From the IMG/VR virus record IMGVR_UViG_3300037780_000049, positions 1 through 42,349 of that record: a stretch of 42,349 nt of DNA. The stretch is one strand, 5' to 3'. Every line of letters starts with the position of its first letter. Positions within the stretch are counted from its first letter, which is position 1. Below are positions 2,519-29,339 of this stretch, piece after piece. The DNA is from a virus (lineage: Duplodnaviria > Caudoviricetes). The notes below the pieces were generated by a model. It was not told where the DNA came from. It made no database searches and saw nothing but the letters and a program-made list of their open reading frames with translations. The position numbers and the translations under genes are program-made.

Positions 2519-2709
2519 CCGACCTCCCGACACGCCGCCCGTCCGTGACCGTCACGGGCGAATACCTCTCCGCGTCCGTCTCCTTCGACCCAAGGACGGG
2601 GGCGCCCTGTGAAGTGTTCTTCGTCTCCCGAGGCAAGACAGGCACGGACCTGAACGAAGAGCTTGAAGAGCTATCCATCCAGATCAGCAGGATCATGCAG
2701 CACCGATGA
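2515..2709 (+). CDS. Stand-alone TSCPD-like domain protein (resembles C-terminal region of class II RNR)
   Basis: RRPSVT...SFDPRTGAPCEVF...KTGTDL...SIQISRIMQH pattern; overlaps its neighbours. Confidence 0.6.
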   Translation: MTDLPTRRPSVTVTGEYLSASVSFDPRTGAPCEVFFVSRGKTGTDLNEELEELSIQISRIMQHR

Positions 2710-3254
2710 GCTTTCTCGATAATGCCCTCGACGCCATCATTGCCCGCGAAGGCGGCTATGTGAACGACCCGGCGGACAGGGGCGGGGAGACCCGTTACGG
2801 CATCACGGTCGCCGTTGCCCGACAGAGCGGCTATGACGGACCGATGAAGGATCTGCCGCTGGACCTGGCGAAGAACATCTATGCCGACCAGTATTGGCGC
2901 CGTCCCGGCTTCTCCCGCGTCTCTCAGGTCTCCGAACGCCTTGCAGAGCGGATGCTGGACTGCGGCATCAACATGGGGCCTTCAGTCTCCACCGGTTTCC
3001 TCCAGCGCGCCCTGAACGCCCTGTCACAGAACGGCGAACTCTACGAGATGCTGACCCGCGACGGGGCCTATGGCGACCGCACCCATTCCGCCCTGAGGGC
3101 CTACATACGGGCCCGCGGGCGTTCCGGTGGGGAACAGGTGCTCATCACGGCATTCAACGGCCTTCAGACCCAGCGGTACATCGAGCTGACCGAGGGCCGC
3201 CCACAGAACGCGAGATTCACCTTCGGCTGGCTGAGGCACCGGATATGGCTGTGA
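2706..3254 (+). CDS. Endolysin, glycoside hydrolase family 108 with peptidoglycan-binding domain
   Basis: EGGYVNDPADRGGETRYGIT catalytic motif; LQRALN...DGAYGDRT; C-terminal FTFGWLRHR. Confidence 0.93.
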   Translation: MSFLDNALDAIIAREGGYVNDPADRGGETRYGITVAVARQSGYDGPMKDLPLDLAKNIYADQYWRRPGFSRVSQVSERLAERMLDCGINMGPSVSTGFLQRALNALSQNGELYEMLTRDGAYGDRTHSALRAYIRARGRSGGEQVLITAFNGLQTQRYIELTEGRPQNARFTFGWLRHRIWL

Positions 3255-3526
3255 ACCCGAGGAACGATGAAGGGACGTGGGGTGTCCGACGCATCATCAT
3301 CATTACGACGCTGGCCCTGTGCGCGTTCGTGGTGCTGCGCTTCACCCTGTTCCGGGCAGACGATACGGAAGTGAACTCCACGCTCGTCATGGGCGCCTTT
3401 ACGTTGGCGGGCGCGGTTATCGGCTCGTACGTCTTCGGCGCTGTCTGGGACGACATCGAGGTGCGGAAAGAGCGGCGCCGCGACCGGCTCTATGACCGTT
3501 TCCCCTACGACGATAGGCCCGTGTGA
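3251..3526 (+). CDS. Holin-like protein (2 TM helices)
   Basis: GTG start overlaps the endolysin TGA; two hydrophobic helices; GSYVFGAVWDD; charged tail. Confidence 0.7.
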   Translation: MNPRNDEGTWGVRRIIIITTLALCAFVVLRFTLFRADDTEVNSTLVMGAFTLAGAVIGSYVFGAVWDDIEVRKERRRDRLYDRFPYDDRPV

Positions 3527-3642
3527 TGGAAATCCTTGGCTGGATATTCCTCGTGCTGCTGGTTGTCGGCGCCCTTGGCTGGTGGGTGCTGAAGGCTCTC
3601 GCCAAGAGCTTTTGGTGGGGAGGAGTAGGTGCGGCGAGGTAA
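3526..3642 (+). CDS. Small membrane peptide (38 aa)
   Basis: MEILGWIFLVLLVVGALGWWVLKALAKSFWWGGVGAAR; TGATG coupling to the upstream gene. Confidence 0.5.
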   Translation: MEILGWIFLVLLVVGALGWWVLKALAKSFWWGGVGAAR

Positions 3643-3647
3643 GCATT

Positions 3648-3761
3648 TGGTGCCGACCGGGATACGCCCAATCCAAAACACCGAGAGTCCCTTTGCCGGG
3701 CATTTGCCGACAGGCTTCCCTCTCACCCGCTGCTCTCGCACGTCAGAGACGCCGCCGCACC
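3648..3761 (-). ncRNA. Candidate ~114-nt cloverleaf-like small RNA ending in CCA
   Basis: Extended -10 TGCTATACT 7 nt upstream. 5' GGUGC pairs with 3' GCACC(A). Three internal hairpins; a G-U pair favours the minus strand. Confidence 0.5.
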
Positions 3762-3778
3762 GTGACGGAGTATAGCAG

Positions 3779-4336
3779 ATGCCCGTTCTGATGAAAATCT
3801 TCTGGTGGTGCGTCGCCCACAGGAAGTGGCTCGGCATCGGCCTTGCCGTGCTGGCCGTCCTCGGGGCGCTGTGGTGGTACGGGAGCAGCCGGTATCAGGC
3901 AGGGGAAGCCCACGTACAGGCCAAGTGGGATGCCGACGTAGCCTATCGAGAAAAGGCCTTCCACGCCCTCCAGGCTGGCTACTGGAACCTTCAGCGGCAG
4001 ATGCAGGAAAAGTACAGCATCCTCAGACAGGAGAAAGCCGATGCCGATGCGCGTGTTGCTGATTCTCAGCGCCGTATTGATGACCTCTTGCGCGACCGGC
4101 CCAAGCGGCCCACCAATCTGTCCAGCCCCGCCCCAGCTACCGCCGCTGGAGAAGCTGCCCCCGGTTGTACTGGAAAGCAGCTTTTCGGAGAGGATGGAAC
4201 TGTTCTTAAGCGGGAAGCTGCCAGAGCCGATTCCATCCGCACAGCCCTAGCCCTCTGCCAAGCCCAATATCAGGCAGCCGTGGACGCCTACGAGGCGGCG
4301 CGGGCTATCAACAATGGAGAAACCGATGACCGATAA
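3779..4336 (+). CDS. Rz-like inner-membrane spanin
   Basis: N-terminal TM helix, coiled coil, C-terminal AARADSIRTALALCQAQY. The start may be 3791. Confidence 0.85.
   Translation: MPVLMKIFWWCVAHRKWLGIGLAVLAVLGALWWYGSSRYQAGEAHVQAKWDADVAYREKAFHALQAGYWNLQRQMQEKYSILRQEKADADARVADSQRRIDDLLRDRPKRPTNLSSPAPATAAGEAAPGCTGKQLFGEDGTVLKREAARADSIRTALALCQAQYQAAVDAYEAARAINNGETDDR
4041..4250 (+). CDS. Rz1-like outer-membrane spanin lipoprotein, embedded in Rz in the +1 frame
   Basis: Lipobox LMTSC, Pro-rich mature part with Cys, fully nested in Rz. Confidence 0.8.
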   Translation: MPMRVLLILSAVLMTSCATGPSGPPICPAPPQLPPLEKLPPVVLESSFSERMELFLSGKLPEPIPSAQP

Positions 4337-4842: not shown

Positions 4843-4920
4843 CGGGAACACCTGTGGAACATTTACGAAAATCCGCAGCCAAAACAATAGCATAAACCAC
4901 GCCGCAAAGCGCGGTTTTCT

Positions 4921-4949
4921 TTGCCTTTTCGGCTCCGGAAGGGTATCCT
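4921..4949 (+). promoter_or_regulatory. Sigma70-type promoter
   Basis: TTGCCT-N17-TATCCT, pointing into the hairpin-rich region that starts at 4956. Confidence 0.65.
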
Positions 4950-4955
4950 TGGAAA

Positions 4956-5379
4956 AGATTGAGGCCCGGAGCGGGAAACTCCGAGCCTCGATTTCGAGAC
5001 GAGTCCTTTGGCGGTGTTCCTCGTCTCCGTTGCAGCGGATTTTACCCCATCCCCCGCAATTTCGCAACGCCGATAGATCGCCCGCAGTCGGTGGATCCTG
5101 CTTTCAAATCCATCATGCCTCGGGGGCACTTCACTCGCAAGAGGCTTCCGACCCGGCCAAATGCTCCATGTGGCTATGGCCGTAACTCGCGCATATGTAC
5201 GGCACTCTATTTTCATGGTCGTGGTTCGACCGCCGGGCGGCTGACCCCCGTTACAGGGTACGCGAGCTATACGAGGCTGAAACAGCATGGTCCTAGACCG
5301 CGTGGCCCCAGGCTTCCCTATGAAGCCGCACTCAGGGTAGGGCCGGGATAACGCGGAAGGCGGAGTATGCCCAGCTTCC
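4956..5379 (+). ncRNA. Candidate large structured non-coding RNA (~425 nt)
   Basis: Contiguous helices (4956-4994, 4996-5027, 5028-5069, 5087-5152 multiloop, 5154-5182, 5186-5266, 5298-5356), a GCAA tetraloop, + strand G-U pairs and an upstream promoter. Overlapping ORFs are not protein-like. Confidence 0.6.
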
Positions 5380-5380
5380 A

Positions 5381-6840: not shown

Positions 6841-6882
6841 CGGGGCGTAGCTCAGTCTGGTAGAGTGCCTGCTTTGGGAGCA
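6841..6882 (+). other. attP core: 5' half of tRNA-Pro(TGG)
   Basis: CGGGGCG-TA-GCTCAGTCTGGTAGAGT-G-CCTGC-TTTGGGA-GCA gives acceptor 5' strand, D arm and anticodon arm. No T arm or 3' end. It lies immediately downstream of int. Confidence 0.85.
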
Positions 6883-6898
6883 TCACAATTATACCGAT

Positions 6899-8080
6899 TT
6901 ACGCCTTTTTCTTCAACGGGATAGGTTCTTCTTGCCCGGGACTGGTGTGATTTTGATGGGACTCGGCCATGCGGGTCCCCATTGCTTCTACGGCCCTGCG
7001 CACATCCTCAACGTCGGTGTGGGCATAGCGCGCGGTTGACGAAATATCCTTGTGCCCGAGCAACATCTGGACCGCCTTCAGGTGCGAGACGCGCAGGAGC
7101 CGGGTTGCTGCAGTGTGGCGCAAATCGTGCCAGCGGAAGTCCGTGACCTGGGCTGTGCGCAGGGCCGCCCGCCAGAGGTTCCCGACCCAGCTTGAAGTGA
7201 TCGGCTGAATGGAGTCCTTGGTGCGCTCGCCCCGCTTCAGGCGGCAGACGTAGGTAAAGACCGCCGTGTCGTGCTTGCCGACCTGCTGGTCTATCAGGGC
7301 GCGCGCGGCGCGGCTCAGCGGGACCGTGTGTATCCGGCCGCCGGGGGTGCGGCTCTTGAGCCGGATGGTCACGACGTTCCGCGCCAGGTCGACCTGAGAC
7401 CAGCGCAGGTTCACGACGGCGGCTTGCCGAAGCCCGGTCATCATCGAAAACAGGAACGGCGCCAGCAACTCGGGTCGCATGGCCTCGATCACGCGCACCA
7501 GATCCTGTTCCTCGGTCGCGGACAGCTCCCGGGTGCGGCCCTCCGGCTCCAGCAGCAGCAGATCGCGCCACTTGATACGGTCGTTGATCTGGCGCTCCCA
7601 TGTCTCGTGGGCGCGGTTGATGACCCGGCGCAGCAGTTCCACGTCACGGTTGACCGTCGACGGGCTGATCCTGGTGCCCTTCCGTCGGGCCTTCTGTACC
7701 TTTCGCCAGGCGACGAACTGCGATATCCGGTCGCTGCCAACCTCGTGCAGCATGGTGGTCTGTCCGAAGAACTCCGCGAGGCGCGCAAGTTGGGTCTCCG
7801 TCTCGACCTGAGCCGGCGTGCCCTCGACCATCTCGTCATAGTAGCGGTCCATTGCGGTCCCTACGGTGATGGGTTCGGCGGCCTTGAACTTGACGCCGCC
7901 GGTTACAGCGAGCAGCGCGTCCCGGGCATCTATCTCTGCCCGGCGCTGTTCTCTGAGCTGCTTTTCCTTGCCTCGCGCCTTTCCTTCATTCGTCTCTCGC
8001 GTGCTGCCAGAAAATCGCTCACCTCGGACCTGGAAGTCGTAGTACCAGTACGGCGAGCCCTTTTTCTGGTAGATGGACAT
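6899..8080 (-). CDS. int: Tyrosine integrase
   Basis: TGLR, HDLRHTAAT, LLGHKDISSTARY catalytic motifs; N-terminal arm-binding beta domain. Confidence 0.95.
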   Translation of the reverse strand: MSIYQKKGSPYWYYDFQVRGERFSGSTRETNEGKARGKEKQLREQRRAEIDARDALLAVTGGVKFKAAEPITVGTAMDRYYDEMVEGTPAQVETETQLARLAEFFGQTTMLHEVGSDRISQFVAWRKVQKARRKGTRISPSTVNRDVELLRRVINRAHETWERQINDRIKWRDLLLLEPEGRTRELSATEEQDLVRVIEAMRPELLAPFLFSMMTGLRQAAVVNLRWSQVDLARNVVTIRLKSRTPGGRIHTVPLSRAARALIDQQVGKHDTAVFTYVCRLKRGERTKDSIQPITSSWVGNLWRAALRTAQVTDFRWHDLRHTAATRLLRVSHLKAVQMLLGHKDISSTARYAHTDVEDVRRAVEAMGTRMAESHQNHTSPGQEEPIPLKKKA

Positions 8081-16765: not shown

Positions 16766-16896
16766 CCGAGGAACAGAAGCGCCAGAACAGCGCGGCATCC
16801 TTCCAGTTGGCCGTGGACGAGCTGCGCCGCATGTGGCTTGAGCAGCGCCACCCCGGTGAGAGCGCCAAGGACTGGCATCGGAGGGTGTATGGCTGA
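16762..16896 (+). CDS. Hypothetical protein (44 aa)
   Basis: ATGA-coupled MTEEQKRQNSAASFQLAVDELRRMW... Confidence 0.45.
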   Translation: MTEEQKRQNSAASFQLAVDELRRMWLEQRHPGESAKDWHRRVYG

Positions 16897-17644
16897 GCGC
16901 GTGGAACAGATAGGCGACTGCACGCTGTATCTGGGCGACTGTCTGGAGGCGCTGCCGACGTTGGACGGTGTGGACCACGTCATTAGCGACCCGCCGTATG
17001 AAGACGAACTGCACGCAGCCATCGGGCGCATCAGGCGTTCAGATGGGGGCGAAATGGTCGACGACCTTGGCTTTGCCGGGGTGAATTCTGGCCGGGCTGA
17101 AATCGCAAGCGCCTGCGTGTCTATCGCCCGAGGCTGGGTAGTTCTTTTCACGCTGGCGGAGGGCGTGCGCGCGTGGCGGGATGATCTGCAAGCAGCCGGG
17201 GCGAAGTGGGACACAACTTGTTTCTGGATCAAACCAGACGCCAGCCCCCGATTCAACGGCCAAGGTCCCGCACGAGGCGCCGAATGCTTCGTAACCTGCT
17301 GGGCGGGGAAGGGCTATCGCCGCTGGAATGCTGGCGGCAAACGAGGCGTCTACACGCATTGCGTCAATACCGGCCGGCAGGGGGAACACCCTACCGAAAA
17401 GCCCGCACCGTTGATGATGGAGATTGTGGGCGACTTCACGCAACCCGGCGAAGCCATTTGCGACCCTTTCATGGGCAGCGGAACAACCGGCGTTGCGTGC
17501 GCCCGGATGGGGCGCGCCTTTATCGGTATCGAGCAGAATCCTCGCTGGTTCGACCTAGCCTGTCGCCGGATCGAGGGCGTCTACAAGCAGGGCGACATGT
17601 TCCGCGAGCCCCCGCCCAAGCTGAAGCAGGAGGCGATGCTGTGA
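16889..17644 (+). CDS. Orphan DNA N6-adenine/N4-cytosine methyltransferase (beta class)
   Basis: SDPPY (motif IV) precedes HPTEKP and DPFMGSGTTG (motif I). Confidence 0.93.
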   Translation: MAERVEQIGDCTLYLGDCLEALPTLDGVDHVISDPPYEDELHAAIGRIRRSDGGEMVDDLGFAGVNSGRAEIASACVSIARGWVVLFTLAEGVRAWRDDLQAAGAKWDTTCFWIKPDASPRFNGQGPARGAECFVTCWAGKGYRRWNAGGKRGVYTHCVNTGRQGEHPTEKPAPLMMEIVGDFTQPGEAICDPFMGSGTTGVACARMGRAFIGIEQNPRWFDLACRRIEGVYKQGDMFREPPPKLKQEAML

Positions 17645-23259: not shown

Positions 23260-23441
23260 TCGGGCAGAAACCCGTACATCAGCATATAACGGATGCACAG
23301 TTCAGCCGGGCCGGTGATGGGGATCTCGCCCGCTTCCCAGCGCCTGACAGTGCGGTCGTTTGCCAAGCCCAACTCGGCAGCAAGCCCGGCCTGCGAGAGG
23401 CCGAGCTGCTTACGGGCGGATACGATTTCCTCGGGGGTCAT
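23256..23441 (-). CDS. Small XRE HTH repressor (Aca-like)
   Basis: ARKQLGLSQAGLAAELG...RTVRRWEAGEIPI. Confidence 0.85.
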   Translation of the reverse strand: MTPEEIVSARKQLGLSQAGLAAELGLANDRTVRRWEAGEIPITGPAELCIRYMLMYGFLPD

Positions 23442-23875
23442 GCGGCGGGCCTGATGTAGGACTTGTCCTGCGTGGTGGTGAAGCCGCTTTCGGTGCGGAT
23501 GCGATAGGTCTTGGTGTTGACCTTGACGATTTCGCAGGCGCCGTAATGGATCGAAACGGCTTTGTCGCCAGCCTTGAGGGTCAGGGCATCGCGCACAGCC
23601 TGACGGGCACGTTCAGCGTCGCCCTTCTTGCTATTGGCCATCTTGGTGAGGTTCTTGGCTTTGGCGCGGTGTGCGTCGGCCTTGGCGAGCAGTTCATAGG
23701 CACGGTCGGTGTCCGCGATCTGCTTGGCACGGGCGGGCAGGTGGCCGGGCTGAGTGATGAAGGCCCAATCGTGGTTCTGGTTGTCGAGCAGGGCGCGGGC
23801 TTTGGCTTCGGCGGCATCGGCCCAGGCGTTACGACGGTCAGCGCGGTTGGCCCAAGTGGTCTTGATGTTGGTCAT
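23438..23875 (-). CDS. Hypothetical protein (helical N-terminus loosely DUF3560-like; SH3/KOW-like C-terminus)
   Basis: GGGAG RBS; LKAGDKAV...IVKVNTKTYRI. Confidence 0.75.
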   Translation of the reverse strand: MTNIKTTWANRADRRNAWADAAEAKARALLDNQNHDWAFITQPGHLPARAKQIADTDRAYELLAKADAHRAKAKNLTKMANSKKGDAERARQAVRDALTLKAGDKAVSIHYGACEIVKVNTKTYRIRTESGFTTTQDKSYIRPAA

Positions 23876-23922
23876 TTCAGTCTCCCGTGTCCGGTGGGCC
23901 ATTGGCCCGTTGCGATGATGTT

Positions 23923-23951
23923 AGAATAGGACAATATGTCCGGTATGGCAA
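23923..23951 (-). promoter_or_regulatory. Strong promoter with palindromic operator
   Basis: TTGCCA-N17-TATTCT; GGACA-N3-TGTCC (23929-23941) in the spacer. Confidence 0.75.
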
Positions 23952-23962
23952 CAGGAAAAGTG

Positions 23963-24514
23963 ATGGCACGAGCGACTTTTTTTCTCAGTGCCGGGCGCTG
24001 TGGAACACAGACGCTACGCCATGCCATCAACGTCTTGCGCCCTGACGCTGTGGTGGGGCATGAATCAATCGGGCCTGAGTATGCGGCGTTCGACAAGGCA
24101 CTGGCTCACATGCACGAGGTGGAACAGATCCTCGACGGCGGGCAGGACTACATCGAGACGGGCTGGCCGTGCTTCGTGGCGCTGCCGTTCTACCGTGCCA
24201 TTCATCCGGAGTGGAACATCGTCCACATCGAGCGGCGCTTGCAGGACCAGGCGGCTAGCCTGAACGCACAGGGTCTGTTCGATGGAAGGAACGGCAGGTT
24301 CGCCCCACTTCTCACGGGCCTGACAGCCGAGGAGCACATCATGAACATCACGGCGCTGGCGGTGAGCATGAGAACCGAGGGCATCACATTCACCCAGTTG
24401 TTCGGAGGCTACATGGCGCCGGCCAGGATCGCGGCGATGGTCGGTGTTGACCCGGGCGCCCTGACGGACCAGTTGAGGCACAAGGTCGACGCATACGCAC
24501 CGGAGGCTGTGTGA
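23963..24514 (+). CDS. Sulfotransferase-family (P-loop) protein
   Basis: FFLSAGRCGTQTL (5'-PSB-like), HES, IVHIERR...AASL (3'-PB-like). Confidence 0.65.
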   Translation: MARATFFLSAGRCGTQTLRHAINVLRPDAVVGHESIGPEYAAFDKALAHMHEVEQILDGGQDYIETGWPCFVALPFYRAIHPEWNIVHIERRLQDQAASLNAQGLFDGRNGRFAPLLTGLTAEEHIMNITALAVSMRTEGITFTQLFGGYMAPARIAAMVGVDPGALTDQLRHKVDAYAPEAV

Positions 24515-27481: not shown

Positions 27482-28776
27482 TGCTGATCTCTGTCGGCGC
27501 CTTCATGGCCCGGCGTCCGGCAATCCGAGGGTACGACTACGTTGTCGACGACGTGAACGGCAACGACAGCAACGACGGGACCCCTTTGGCCCCTTGGGCG
27601 TCACTGAACAAGCTGGAGACGCTGACGCCGGCTGCGAACCAGACGACCCGTGTGCTGGTGAAGTCCGGCACCTACGACAAGGCCGGGGACTATTTCGAAG
27701 TTTCCAACGATTCGGCGGCGGCGTGGACGTTGGATGTCACGTTCGAGCCTGGCTGTGTCATGGACGGCACGGTCTGCAACACGAGTTCGGCGCAGAACCC
27801 GATCTTCGGCAACGGGACTGCCAGTTGGCGCCTGAACCTGCACGGCAACGGCCTGACCATCCAGGATTACGACAACACGTCGGGCGGCTCTCCCAACGGC
27901 ATTGGCTGGGGCGGGAACTGCTTCGTCTACGCCTCGGACGTGGACATCACGAACTGTGTGGACGGGGTGAGCAACCACGACAACGGCCCCGGCCTGATCG
28001 TGAACGTCACGGTGACGGCGTGCTCCAAGTACGCACTGGCTCAGACCGGGACCGGGCATACGGATTTCTATGGTTGCTCGTTCACCGGGGAGGATGCAGC
28101 GACCGGCGGCGTGGCATCTGTGGCGCTGGATGCTTCGGCCGCCTTCTACGACACCAAGTTTATCCCAGTTGGGACATCCAGGAACCTTGCGCTGTCGAAC
28201 AGCACGCTCACCCGCTGTCAGGTGGGCACGGAGACCGACGACATGGTCTTCAACCCGGATCTAGCCAACAGCACGACATTCTCCAAGTGCTACGTGCACA
28301 TGGAATGCCAGCAGCTCGTTGGGCCGATCATGGATGAATGCTTTGGTCGGTTCTCCATGCGCCTGCGCGACAGTGGCGAGCCGGACATTCAGAACTGCGT
28401 ATTCACCGGCCCGGCGGAAAGCCAGAGCCTGATGCTCTACGCCAACACCGGCACCGCTTTCGCGCCCTTCACCTTCTCCAACAACATCCTGGCCGGTAAC
28501 TTCACGTTCGACAATCTCGGCAGCCGCTACAACCTGCTAGAAGCCGACAACGTGTTTGCCAGCAACCTGCTGTTCGGCGGCGTGGCCTACAGCGCGAACC
28601 TGACCGGATCCAGTGCAACCATATCCGGCACGGTGACGGACGACCCGCTGATCGGCGACGCGGATAGCTACCTGATGGCGGATTACGCCTATGGGGAAGG
28701 CTCCCCGGCCATCGGAGCGGGGACGGTGGACAATATCGGCTTTGGTGCCGACGACGTGGAAGAACTGGCAGCATGA
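27481..28776 (+). CDS. Parallel beta-helix fibre/depolymerase-like protein
   Basis: VDDVNGNDSNDGT...PWASL...VKSGTY start and Asn/Cys ladder repeats; short hydrophobic N-terminal peptide. Confidence 0.7.
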   Translation: MLISVGAFMARRPAIRGYDYVVDDVNGNDSNDGTPLAPWASLNKLETLTPAANQTTRVLVKSGTYDKAGDYFEVSNDSAAAWTLDVTFEPGCVMDGTVCNTSSAQNPIFGNGTASWRLNLHGNGLTIQDYDNTSGGSPNGIGWGGNCFVYASDVDITNCVDGVSNHDNGPGLIVNVTVTACSKYALAQTGTGHTDFYGCSFTGEDAATGGVASVALDASAAFYDTKFIPVGTSRNLALSNSTLTRCQVGTETDDMVFNPDLANSTTFSKCYVHMECQQLVGPIMDECFGRFSMRLRDSGEPDIQNCVFTGPAESQSLMLYANTGTAFAPFTFSNNILAGNFTFDNLGSRYNLLEADNVFASNLLFGGVAYSANLTGSSATISGTVTDDPLIGDADSYLMADYAYGEGSPAIGAGTVDNIGFGADDVEELAA

Positions 28777-29339
28777 CGCGGAAGAAGATCCCCGATCACT
28801 ATTACGAGTCCATCCAGGGCTGGTTCAACTTCCGCGGCGTCTATGAGAACGCCGTGCGTGAGGCCAAATCCGGCGCCCAGTTCGTGGAGGTGGGCTGCTG
28901 GAAAGGGCGTTCGACCGCGTTTCTCGGGGTGGAAATCCTGAAATCGGGCAAGAAGATCACCCTGCACTGCGTGGACCACTTTCTCGGCTCCGATGAGGAA
29001 GTCCACCAGTCCGACCCGGAGGTCGGGGCGCTGCTGAGGGTGTTCGAGAAGAACACCACTCCCCTGAAGGGCCTGGATCTGGAAGTTCACGTCATGGAAT
29101 CCGTCGACGCTGCCGACCAGTTCAAGGACGGATCCGTGGATTTCGTCTGGCTCGATGCCGGGCACGACTATGAATCGGTCAAGCGGGACATCGAAGCCTG
29201 GCTGCCCAAAGTGAAGCCCGGCGGGATGATCGGCGGGGACGATTTTCCCATGCAGGGGGTGGCGAAGGCCGTCAAGGAGTTCGGAGACCATGAACTCCAC
29301 ATCGAAAACGGCTGGACGGTCTGGACCAAGCGTATCTGA
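28773..29339 (+). CDS. Class I SAM-dependent methyltransferase (Methyltransf_24-like)
   Basis: VEVGCWKGRS, VDHF, VDFVWLDAGHDYESVKRD, KPGGMIGGDD. Confidence 0.9.
   Translation: MTRKKIPDHYYESIQGWFNFRGVYENAVREAKSGAQFVEVGCWKGRSTAFLGVEILKSGKKITLHCVDHFLGSDEEVHQSDPEVGALLRVFEKNTTPLKGLDLEVHVMESVDAADQFKDGSVDFVWLDAGHDYESVKRDIEAWLPKVKPGGMIGGDDFPMQGVAKAVKEFGDHELHIENGWTVWTKRI

What the first reader, a model, noticed from the sequence alone, without database searches (positions are those of the whole stretch)
3628..3777. Promoter-driven ~114-nt cloverleaf-like RNA ending in CCA, antisense within the lysis cassette
Seen on the minus strand: TGCTATACT extended -10, then 7 nt later GGUGC...GCACCA. Inside are three hairpins (CUCU/AGAG; GAGAG-UGUCGG/CCGGCA-CUCUC with a G-U pair; GGAU-7 nt-AUCC). 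The 5' GGUGCGGCG can also pair perfectly with 3628-3636, giving an alternative fold. It has no TTC T-loop or canonical anticodon arm, so it is not a tRNA. Known: P1 C4 and P4 CI RNAs are tRNA-like antisense regulators. Inference: a tRNA-mimic or antisense switch acting on holin/spanin expression.
Basis: partly seen in the sequence, partly recalled or inferred. Interest (0 to 1): 0.7.

Follow-up and report, generated by a model that had tools for sequence, protein, structure and literature searches.

The report
Candidate antisense RNA within lysis genes
Inside this temperate phage's lysis genes, a promoter-like site on the opposite strand points into a gene-free gap and would make a folded RNA of about 134 bases overlapping the end of a tiny membrane-protein gene, likely damping leaky lysis messages in the dormant phage; it is not a tRNA mimic, and no transcript or homologue has been shown.

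Summary
The minus-strand promoter-like site (TTTTCA-17-TGcTATACT, 3797-3769) is one of six strong sigma70-type sites in the genome. A perfect 9-bp stem begins at the predicted start and closes at 3628 (18 of 5000 shuffles). The 114-nt CCA cloverleaf fails: -28 versus -48 kcal/mol, three of its four inner helices near zero probability, and a 5-bp stem plus CCA arises in 284 of 5000 shuffles. The 134-nt form is a three-way junction of modest stability (z about -2). A second pond sample holds a relative of that gene that keeps the purine-rich junction. tRNA, C4, c4-2, c4-a1b1 and IsrK models miss the RNA, and C4-type same-strand targets are absent although the test recovers them for P1 and P4. 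No homologue of the RNA was found, so covariation is untested. Best reading (0.38): a convergent cis-antisense RNA that destabilises leaky peptide/lysis mRNA, like lambda OOP, STnc6030 or type I antitoxins. Main rival (0.27): a chance by-product of a spanin-swap scar.

The parts
3792..3797 (-). -35-like hexamer TTTTCA (4 of 6), inside spanin codons 5-7
3769..3777 (-). extended -10 TGcTATACT (5 of 6), overlapping the spanin SD-to-start spacer
3628..3761 (-). candidate 134-nt antisense RNA, predicted three-way junction; start inferred at 3763-3761, 3' end inferred at the base of the terminal stem
   Evidence: no transcript data
3753..3761 (-). 5' arm of the perfect 9-bp terminal stem
   Evidence: (pair probability 0.84-1.0)
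3628..3643 (-). 3' arm: 9-bp terminal stem plus 7-bp inner stem (partner 3728-3722); antisense to the last codons and stop of the 38-aa ORF
3683..3724 (-). hairpin A (core helix 3712-3707/3699-3694, CAAAUG loop)
3568..3627 (-). C-rich, G-poor tail behind the stem (possible Rho loading site; also explained by the membrane-helix codons opposite); no intrinsic terminator predicted
   Evidence: 77 of 4229 windows are as C-rich
3526..3642 (+). 38-aa single-helix membrane ORF, coupled to the upstream gene by a TGATG overlap; relative P0017 (32 aa, 89% over 27 aa)
3245..3526 (+). holin-like two-helix gene (PHROG 14936, function unknown; holin role inferred from position)
2706..3254 (+). GH108 endolysin
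3779..4336 (+). Rz-like inner spanin, with an embedded lipoprotein ORF (likely Rz1) at 4041-4250
3697..3785 (+). sense-strand 11-bp helix 3697-3707 with 3775-3785, covering the spanin AUG; predicted exclusive with the 9-bp stem
   Evidence: (I9)
3629..3775 (+). 48-codon open frame behind an SD-like run; probably not a gene

Best explanation
A host-type promoter-like site on the minus strand likely makes, in the lysogen, a ~134-nt end-paired RNA that overlaps the 3' end of a 38-aa membrane-peptide gene in the lysis operon and would pair with leaky lysis mRNA and speed its decay. Shown by sequence: the promoter-like site, the 9-bp stem at the start, the convergent overlap and the peptide ORF. 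Inferred: (1) the host's housekeeping polymerase fires the promoter, so it needs no phage activator; (2) transcription ends in the C-rich tail (Rho) and is trimmed back to the stem, which protects both ends; (3) a loop or the AAAUG linker nucleates pairing with the sense mRNA over 3628-3761, and RNase III cuts the duplex, removing the peptide's stop region and separating the spanin from upstream genes; (4) strong late transcription after induction out-titrates the RNA, so lysis proceeds.
For: Promoter-like site among the 6 best in 42 kb. It is the only one of the 6 followed by a 9-bp start-anchored stem. The gap is non-coding by codon score (-0.30 for the 48-codon frame against +0.26 for the first 27 peptide codons) and was not called as a gene. 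The peptide is called on this contig and has a relative. A contig in run X2 keeps 73 nt of the peptide gene with 3 differences, ends the ORF at the TAG that abuts the stem, and keeps the purine-rich junction plus the first 3 letters of the arm although the codons before it differ. In 46 of 65 loci with a related holin-like gene, a >=70-aa membrane-anchored ORF follows directly, so peptide plus gap is an add-on. The phage has an integrase whose best hits are alphaproteobacterial. Precedents: OOP and STnc6030 (PMC7067206, passages), convergent type I antitoxins (PMC6563280, passages), PAK_P4as15 (PMC12197685, passages).
Against: No homologue of the RNA in any search (34/37, 42, 46, 58/60, 68, 79/81, 82, 123), so no covariation. 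The fold is only z about -2, a level reached by 14 of 142 windows. Both promoter hexamers sit in spanin start-region sequence (SD spacer and ATGAAA), so the site could be a by-product. No intrinsic terminator. The relative's conserved junction is also SD-like and only 3 letters of the arm are visible. The 9-bp stem test was made after seeing the stem, and the stem forms on either strand.
Confidence: 0.38

Rival explanations
1. No functional RNA. The 38-aa ORF is the stranded membrane anchor of an earlier spanin gene, the gap is a recombination scar left when a new Rz/Rz1 module came in, and the promoter-like site is a by-product of the spanin start region.
For: The peptide sits where 46 of 65 relatives have a membrane-anchored gene start and resembles a spanin N-terminus by eye. 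Its last 11 codons are not conserved in the relative. Fold stability is ordinary. No homologues were found.
Against: A start-anchored 9-bp stem right behind a top promoter-like site (18 of 5000). The peptide's first 27 codons are kept at about 96% DNA identity behind what is probably a 50%-identical holin-like gene, and the junction sequence reappears.
Confidence: 0.27
2. A trans-acting structured small RNA, merely parked in the lysis operon, that acts on host or rival-phage messages or binds a protein through its two exposed CAAAUG motifs or its anti-SD-like CU-rich tail.
For: End-paired three-way junction with CAAAUG in both a loop and the linker. Fully open CU-rich tail. Loose likeness to a second small-RNA-like unit at 5033-4953 (11 of 500 shuffles).
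Against: Accessible 8-mers hit only 4 scattered starts among 42 phage gene starts, with no shared tag (one start was entered on the wrong strand). No Rfam match. Host messages could not be tested.
Confidence: 0.13
3. A true type I toxin-antitoxin pair: the 38-aa peptide is a membrane toxin and the RNA is its antitoxin, stabilising the prophage.
For: Under 60 aa, one hydrophobic helix (19-residue hydropathy up to 2.39), basic and aromatic C-terminal part. Convergent 3' overlap. Peptide start region fairly occluded (3rd of 23).
Against: No sense promoter or leader of its own (best score 7 against 11); the gene is coupled to the holin-like stop. No Pfam, PHROG or PADLOC match.
Confidence: 0.1
4. 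The working element is on the sense mRNA: a switch in which ribosomes finishing the peptide melt the 9-bp stem, so that 3697-3707 pairs with the spanin AUG and lowers spanin output.
For: 11-bp helix over the AUG (18 of 2000 shuffles; strongest of 37 starts, 2 of which reach 11 bp). Exclusive with the 9-bp stem. Opening cost 13.8-14.7 with a modelled ribosome against 9.4-10.9 naked.
Against: Overall spanin start occlusion is unremarkable (6th of 23). The helix has probability 0.01-0.25 in longer contexts. The test was post hoc, and this reading does not explain the promoter.
Confidence: 0.08
5. A tRNA-mimic or P1 C4/P4 CI-type immunity RNA.
For: It starts with GGU and ends CACC, with a long closing stem, two abutting hairpins and a short 3' linker, as C4 does.
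Against: No hit with tRNA, C4, c4-2, c4-a1b1 or IsrK models at the element. No same-strand targets for loops or linker, while P1 and P4 controls show them. No precursor leader, because the stem begins at the predicted start.
Confidence: 0.04

Closest known systems
Convergent type I antitoxin RNAs (C. difficile RCd8-10; B. subtilis SR4) - PMC6563280, passages read
   Same: Antisense RNA convergent on a gene for a <60-aa hydrophobic protein, in a prophage.
   Different: Here the peptide has no promoter of its own and is coupled inside a lysis operon; the overlap visible in the folded RNA is about 15 nt; toxicity untested; likely alphaproteobacterial host.
STnc6030 of prophage BTP1 and lambda OOP - PMC7067206, passages read
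   Same: Prophage RNA antisense to lytic-operon genes, thought to destabilise the sense mRNA.
   Different: STnc6030 is 786 nt and antisense to tailspike and injection genes; OOP acts on cII. This RNA is short, end-paired and mostly intergenic. Expression is not shown.
PAK_P4as15 - PMC12197685, passages read
   Same: Phage antisense RNA at a lysis gene, proposed to delay lysis.
   Different: [quoted passage not shown]
P1/P7 C4 and P4 CI RNAs (Rfam RF01695) - PMC5320573, passages read; P1 and P4 records
   Same: Three-way-junction shape, 5' GGU.
   Different: 134 nt against 77-87; no model hit; no a/b targets on its own strand; no leader for RNase P; lies in the lysis region, not an immunity operon.

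Membership tests
tRNA / tRNA mimic | 7-bp acceptor stem, discriminator base and free CCA | tested here: not met
   5-bp stem with the CC paired; ARAGORN 0 genes
tRNA / tRNA mimic | T-arm with a TTC loop | tested here: not met
   no TTCR in the 134 nt
C4 / CI antisense RNA | match to the C4, c4-2, c4-a1b1 or IsrK covariance models | tested here: not met
   P4 control scores 74.9 bits
C4 / CI antisense RNA | loop and linker complementary to targets on the same strand up- and downstream | tested here: not met
   found for P1 and P4; for this RNA only stem-region 7-mers, plus one at -24 inside the promoter
C4 / CI antisense RNA | three-way junction with a long closing stem | tested here: inconclusive
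   predicted for the 134-nt form, without covariation
C4 / CI antisense RNA | RNase P processing from a precursor | not testable with these tools
   the stem begins at the predicted start, so little or no leader
type I toxin-antitoxin | small hydrophobic protein under 60 aa with a membrane helix and charged C-terminus | tested here: met
type I toxin-antitoxin | antisense unit overlapping the toxin message | tested here: inconclusive
   promoter-like site and overlap present; transcript not shown
type I toxin-antitoxin | toxin gene with its own promoter and leader (typical feature, from my own knowledge) | tested here: not met
   no good sense promoter in 3100-3520; TGATG coupling
type I toxin-antitoxin | toxicity neutralised by the RNA | not testable with these tools
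   bench test needed
cis-encoded antisense RNA of temperate phages | opposite-strand promoter facing a lytic operon | tested here: met
   (sequence match only)
cis-encoded antisense RNA of temperate phages | expressed in lysogens and lowers sense mRNA | not testable with these tools
   needs lysogen RNA data
any Rfam family | gathering-score match | tested here: not met

The most novel reading that the evidence does not exclude
A new class of folded phage RNA that gates the last step of lysis: a membrane micropeptide plus a convergent three-way-junction RNA, inserted between holin and spanin. Peptide translation closes the spanin start through the 11-bp helix, and the RNA both silences the peptide and re-opens or cuts free the spanin message, so outer-membrane disruption is timed separately from holin and endolysin.
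Probability: 0.08. Interest if true: 0.65.

Novelty: new member of a known kind. Interest (0 to 1): 0.3.

Why it matters
If real, it is an RNA safety catch on lysis genes in a likely alphaproteobacterial prophage, paired with an unannotated membrane micropeptide, and a lead on post-transcriptional control of spanins. Three paper searches returned no description of an antisense RNA at a holin-spanin junction; the library lacks most subscription papers. The general mechanism is well known and nothing here shows expression or conservation, so the present value is modest.

Tried and rejected
Homologue searches without a true hit: blastn of phages and plasmids; own genome, single copy; exact patterns in viral contigs, metagenomes (both hits lie in coding genes) and genomes; flanks scored in scripts. 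A single-sequence covariance model R1 found nothing in 50 of the 65 holin-relative records searched whole, in the other 15 as loci and 80 of 119 pattern loci, or in 100 of 111 junction-pattern loci; no positive control genome exists, so these blanks are weak. Relatives by spanin, holin and integrase single queries gave no loci. The contig of peptide relative P0017 was not found in viral contigs. Bacterial genome sets could not be searched because no genome handle with relatives was obtained. Sequencing runs: no RNA holder listed, which says nothing on expression. Run X2 has no cover over 3634-4249, which proves nothing. A recalled likeness to IsrK/c4-a1b1 hairpins was tested and rejected. The 48-codon sense ORF was rejected as a gene on weak grounds. 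A multi-target tag on phage gene starts was not found. Pairing with the second small RNA is at chance level (201 of 500 shuffles). The Atlas gave only a 0.75 hit for the peptide. My early 33-aa reading of the peptide was a framing error, corrected to 38 aa; searches used the 33-aa part. ORF 23438-23902 was entered on the wrong strand.

Full report
Setting. The window is a whole 42,349-bp virus record with a tyrosine integrase whose best hits are Sphingopyxis, Sinorhizobium and Bradyrhizobium phages and alphaproteobacterial plasmids. It is therefore likely a temperate phage of an alphaproteobacterium. Two pond-metagenome runs hold it or parts of it; X1 may be its source. The lysis region on the plus strand reads: GH108 endolysin 2706-3254, holin-like gene 3245-3526 (role inferred from position), a 38-aa ORF 3526-3642, a gap, Rz-like spanin 3779-4336 with an embedded lipoprotein ORF.

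Observation. All motifs are in place. The promoter-like site TTTTCA-17-TATACT with TG is one of 3 in 2.8 kb against 0.8 expected and one of 6 passing a strict filter genome-wide. It ranks first only with a bonus for the TG. Both hexamers lie in spanin start-region sequence, so a by-product cannot be excluded. Its 5-bp stem plus CCA is common by chance (284 of 5000). The 'alternative' pairing is the stronger feature: a perfect 9-bp stem from the predicted start to 3628 (probability 0.84-1.0; 18 of 5000 shuffles, 58 of 12,026 genome positions, and none of the other 5 promoter-like sites). In that 134-nt form a 7-bp inner stem closes two abutting hairpins and an AAAUG linker. Total stability is modest (z -1.99 and -2.41; 14 of 142 windows reach -2), and the plus strand scores alike (z -2.15). 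No intrinsic terminator follows, but the next 60 nt are C-rich (77 of 4229 windows).

What it overlaps. The 38-aa ORF was called on this contig by public pipelines, has one strong hydrophobic helix and coding-like first 27 codons. The RNA's 3' arm covers its last five codons and stop. A search of 1.84 billion representatives gave 2 hits: itself and a 32-aa relative, P0017. Run X2 holds a 151-nt contig matching 3524-3596 with 3 differences, including the change that gives P0017's residue 14. Its 10 upstream letters read as the last three residues of holin-like cluster P0002/P0018-20 (my reading of the letters). The 30 visible letters of its 68-nt loose end complete P0017 and return to the purine-rich junction and the first GGT of the stem arm. 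So holin-like gene, peptide and junction appear to be kept together in at least one relative; the rest of its element was not visible. In 65 loci with more distant holin-like genes, 46 have a >=70-aa membrane-anchored ORF directly behind, 6 have a gap of 106-338 nt and 13 could not be scored; none resembles the element.

Family tests. Rfam gives nothing at gathering score and only unrelated weak hits around the element; ARAGORN finds nothing. C4, c4-2, c4-a1b1 and IsrK models do not hit the element, while P4 scores 74.9 bits. C4 acts through loop and linker sequences that pair with targets in its own operon and is cut from a precursor by RNase P (PMC5320573, passages; P1 annotation). A 7-mer scan recovers such targets on both sides for P1 and P4 but not for this RNA. 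It shares C4's outline but is not a member. The C4 table entry in PMC2864571 (passages) added nothing further.

Homologues. None was found by blastn, exact patterns or a single-sequence covariance model (counts under Tried and rejected). Covariation, the decisive test, is therefore open. Bacterial genome sets could be scanned only by one exact pattern.

Mechanism. I commit to a convergent cis-antisense RNA (0.38). Shown: promoter-like site, start-anchored stem, overlap with the peptide gene. Inferred: constitutive firing in the lysogen, Rho-type ending and trimming, pairing with leaky lysis mRNA, RNase III cutting, and swamping after induction. That a complete -10 makes a strong alphaproteobacterial promoter, and the RNase III step, rest on my own knowledge. 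Precedents read as passages: OOP and STnc6030 (PMC7067206), convergent type I antitoxins (PMC6563280), PAK_P4as15 (PMC12197685); no supplements were opened. Rivals: a non-functional spanin-swap scar (0.27); a trans-acting small RNA (0.13; no shared target tag among 42 starts); a true type I toxin-antitoxin pair (0.10; no toxin promoter); a sense-strand spanin switch (0.08; 11-bp helix over the AUG, 18 of 2000 shuffles, but unremarkable overall occlusion); tRNA mimic or C4 (0.04).

Verdict. This is a plausible but unproven new member of a known kind. Three paper searches showed no report of this arrangement. Interest 0.3.

Noticed in passing
window 5033-4953 (-): A second small-RNA-like unit: promoter-like TTGCGA-17-TAAAAT (5067-5039), two hairpins, terminator; z -4.4; weak FinP hit (E 0.59); loosely aligns with RNA positions 28-115 (11 of 500 shuffles). 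A weaker sense promoter-like site near 4921-4949 (seen by eye) would overlap it head to head. No blastn homologue.
   Followed up: partly
window 6841-6882: Short stretch shared with many other contigs that run on into tRNA-like T-arm sequence: likely the attP core, next to the integrase end.
   Followed up: no
window 4900-5380: Long gap without a convincing ORF, holding a two-way terminator (4901-4915), an 11-nt copy of an RNA segment at 5319-5309 and a GCATTTGG complementary to the RNA linker at 5164; folding is not unusual.
   Followed up: partly
window 4850-4395 (-): Two small minus-strand ORFs facing the lysis operon; one matches PHROG 21321 (unknown). Their transcript could read on antisense into the spanin genes.
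   Followed up: no
window 4272-4309: A 38-nt piece at the spanin 3' end is shared with another 7.9-kb contig in X1 and a 309-nt contig in X2.
   Followed up: no
window 28228-28362 and 7828-7962: The most stable sampled 135-nt windows (z -4.6 and -3.6), both inside coding genes.
   Followed up: no
window 16838-17644; 28773-29339; 23936-24514: ORFs that by eye resemble a DNA methyltransferase, a class I SAM methyltransferase and a sulfotransferase-like protein (not scanned, except 23936 against PADLOC with no hit).
   Followed up: no
L040 and L041, just behind the holin-like gene: An extra gene of about 100 codons lies between the holin-like gene and the spanin, so this junction takes insertions in other phages too.
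   Followed up: no
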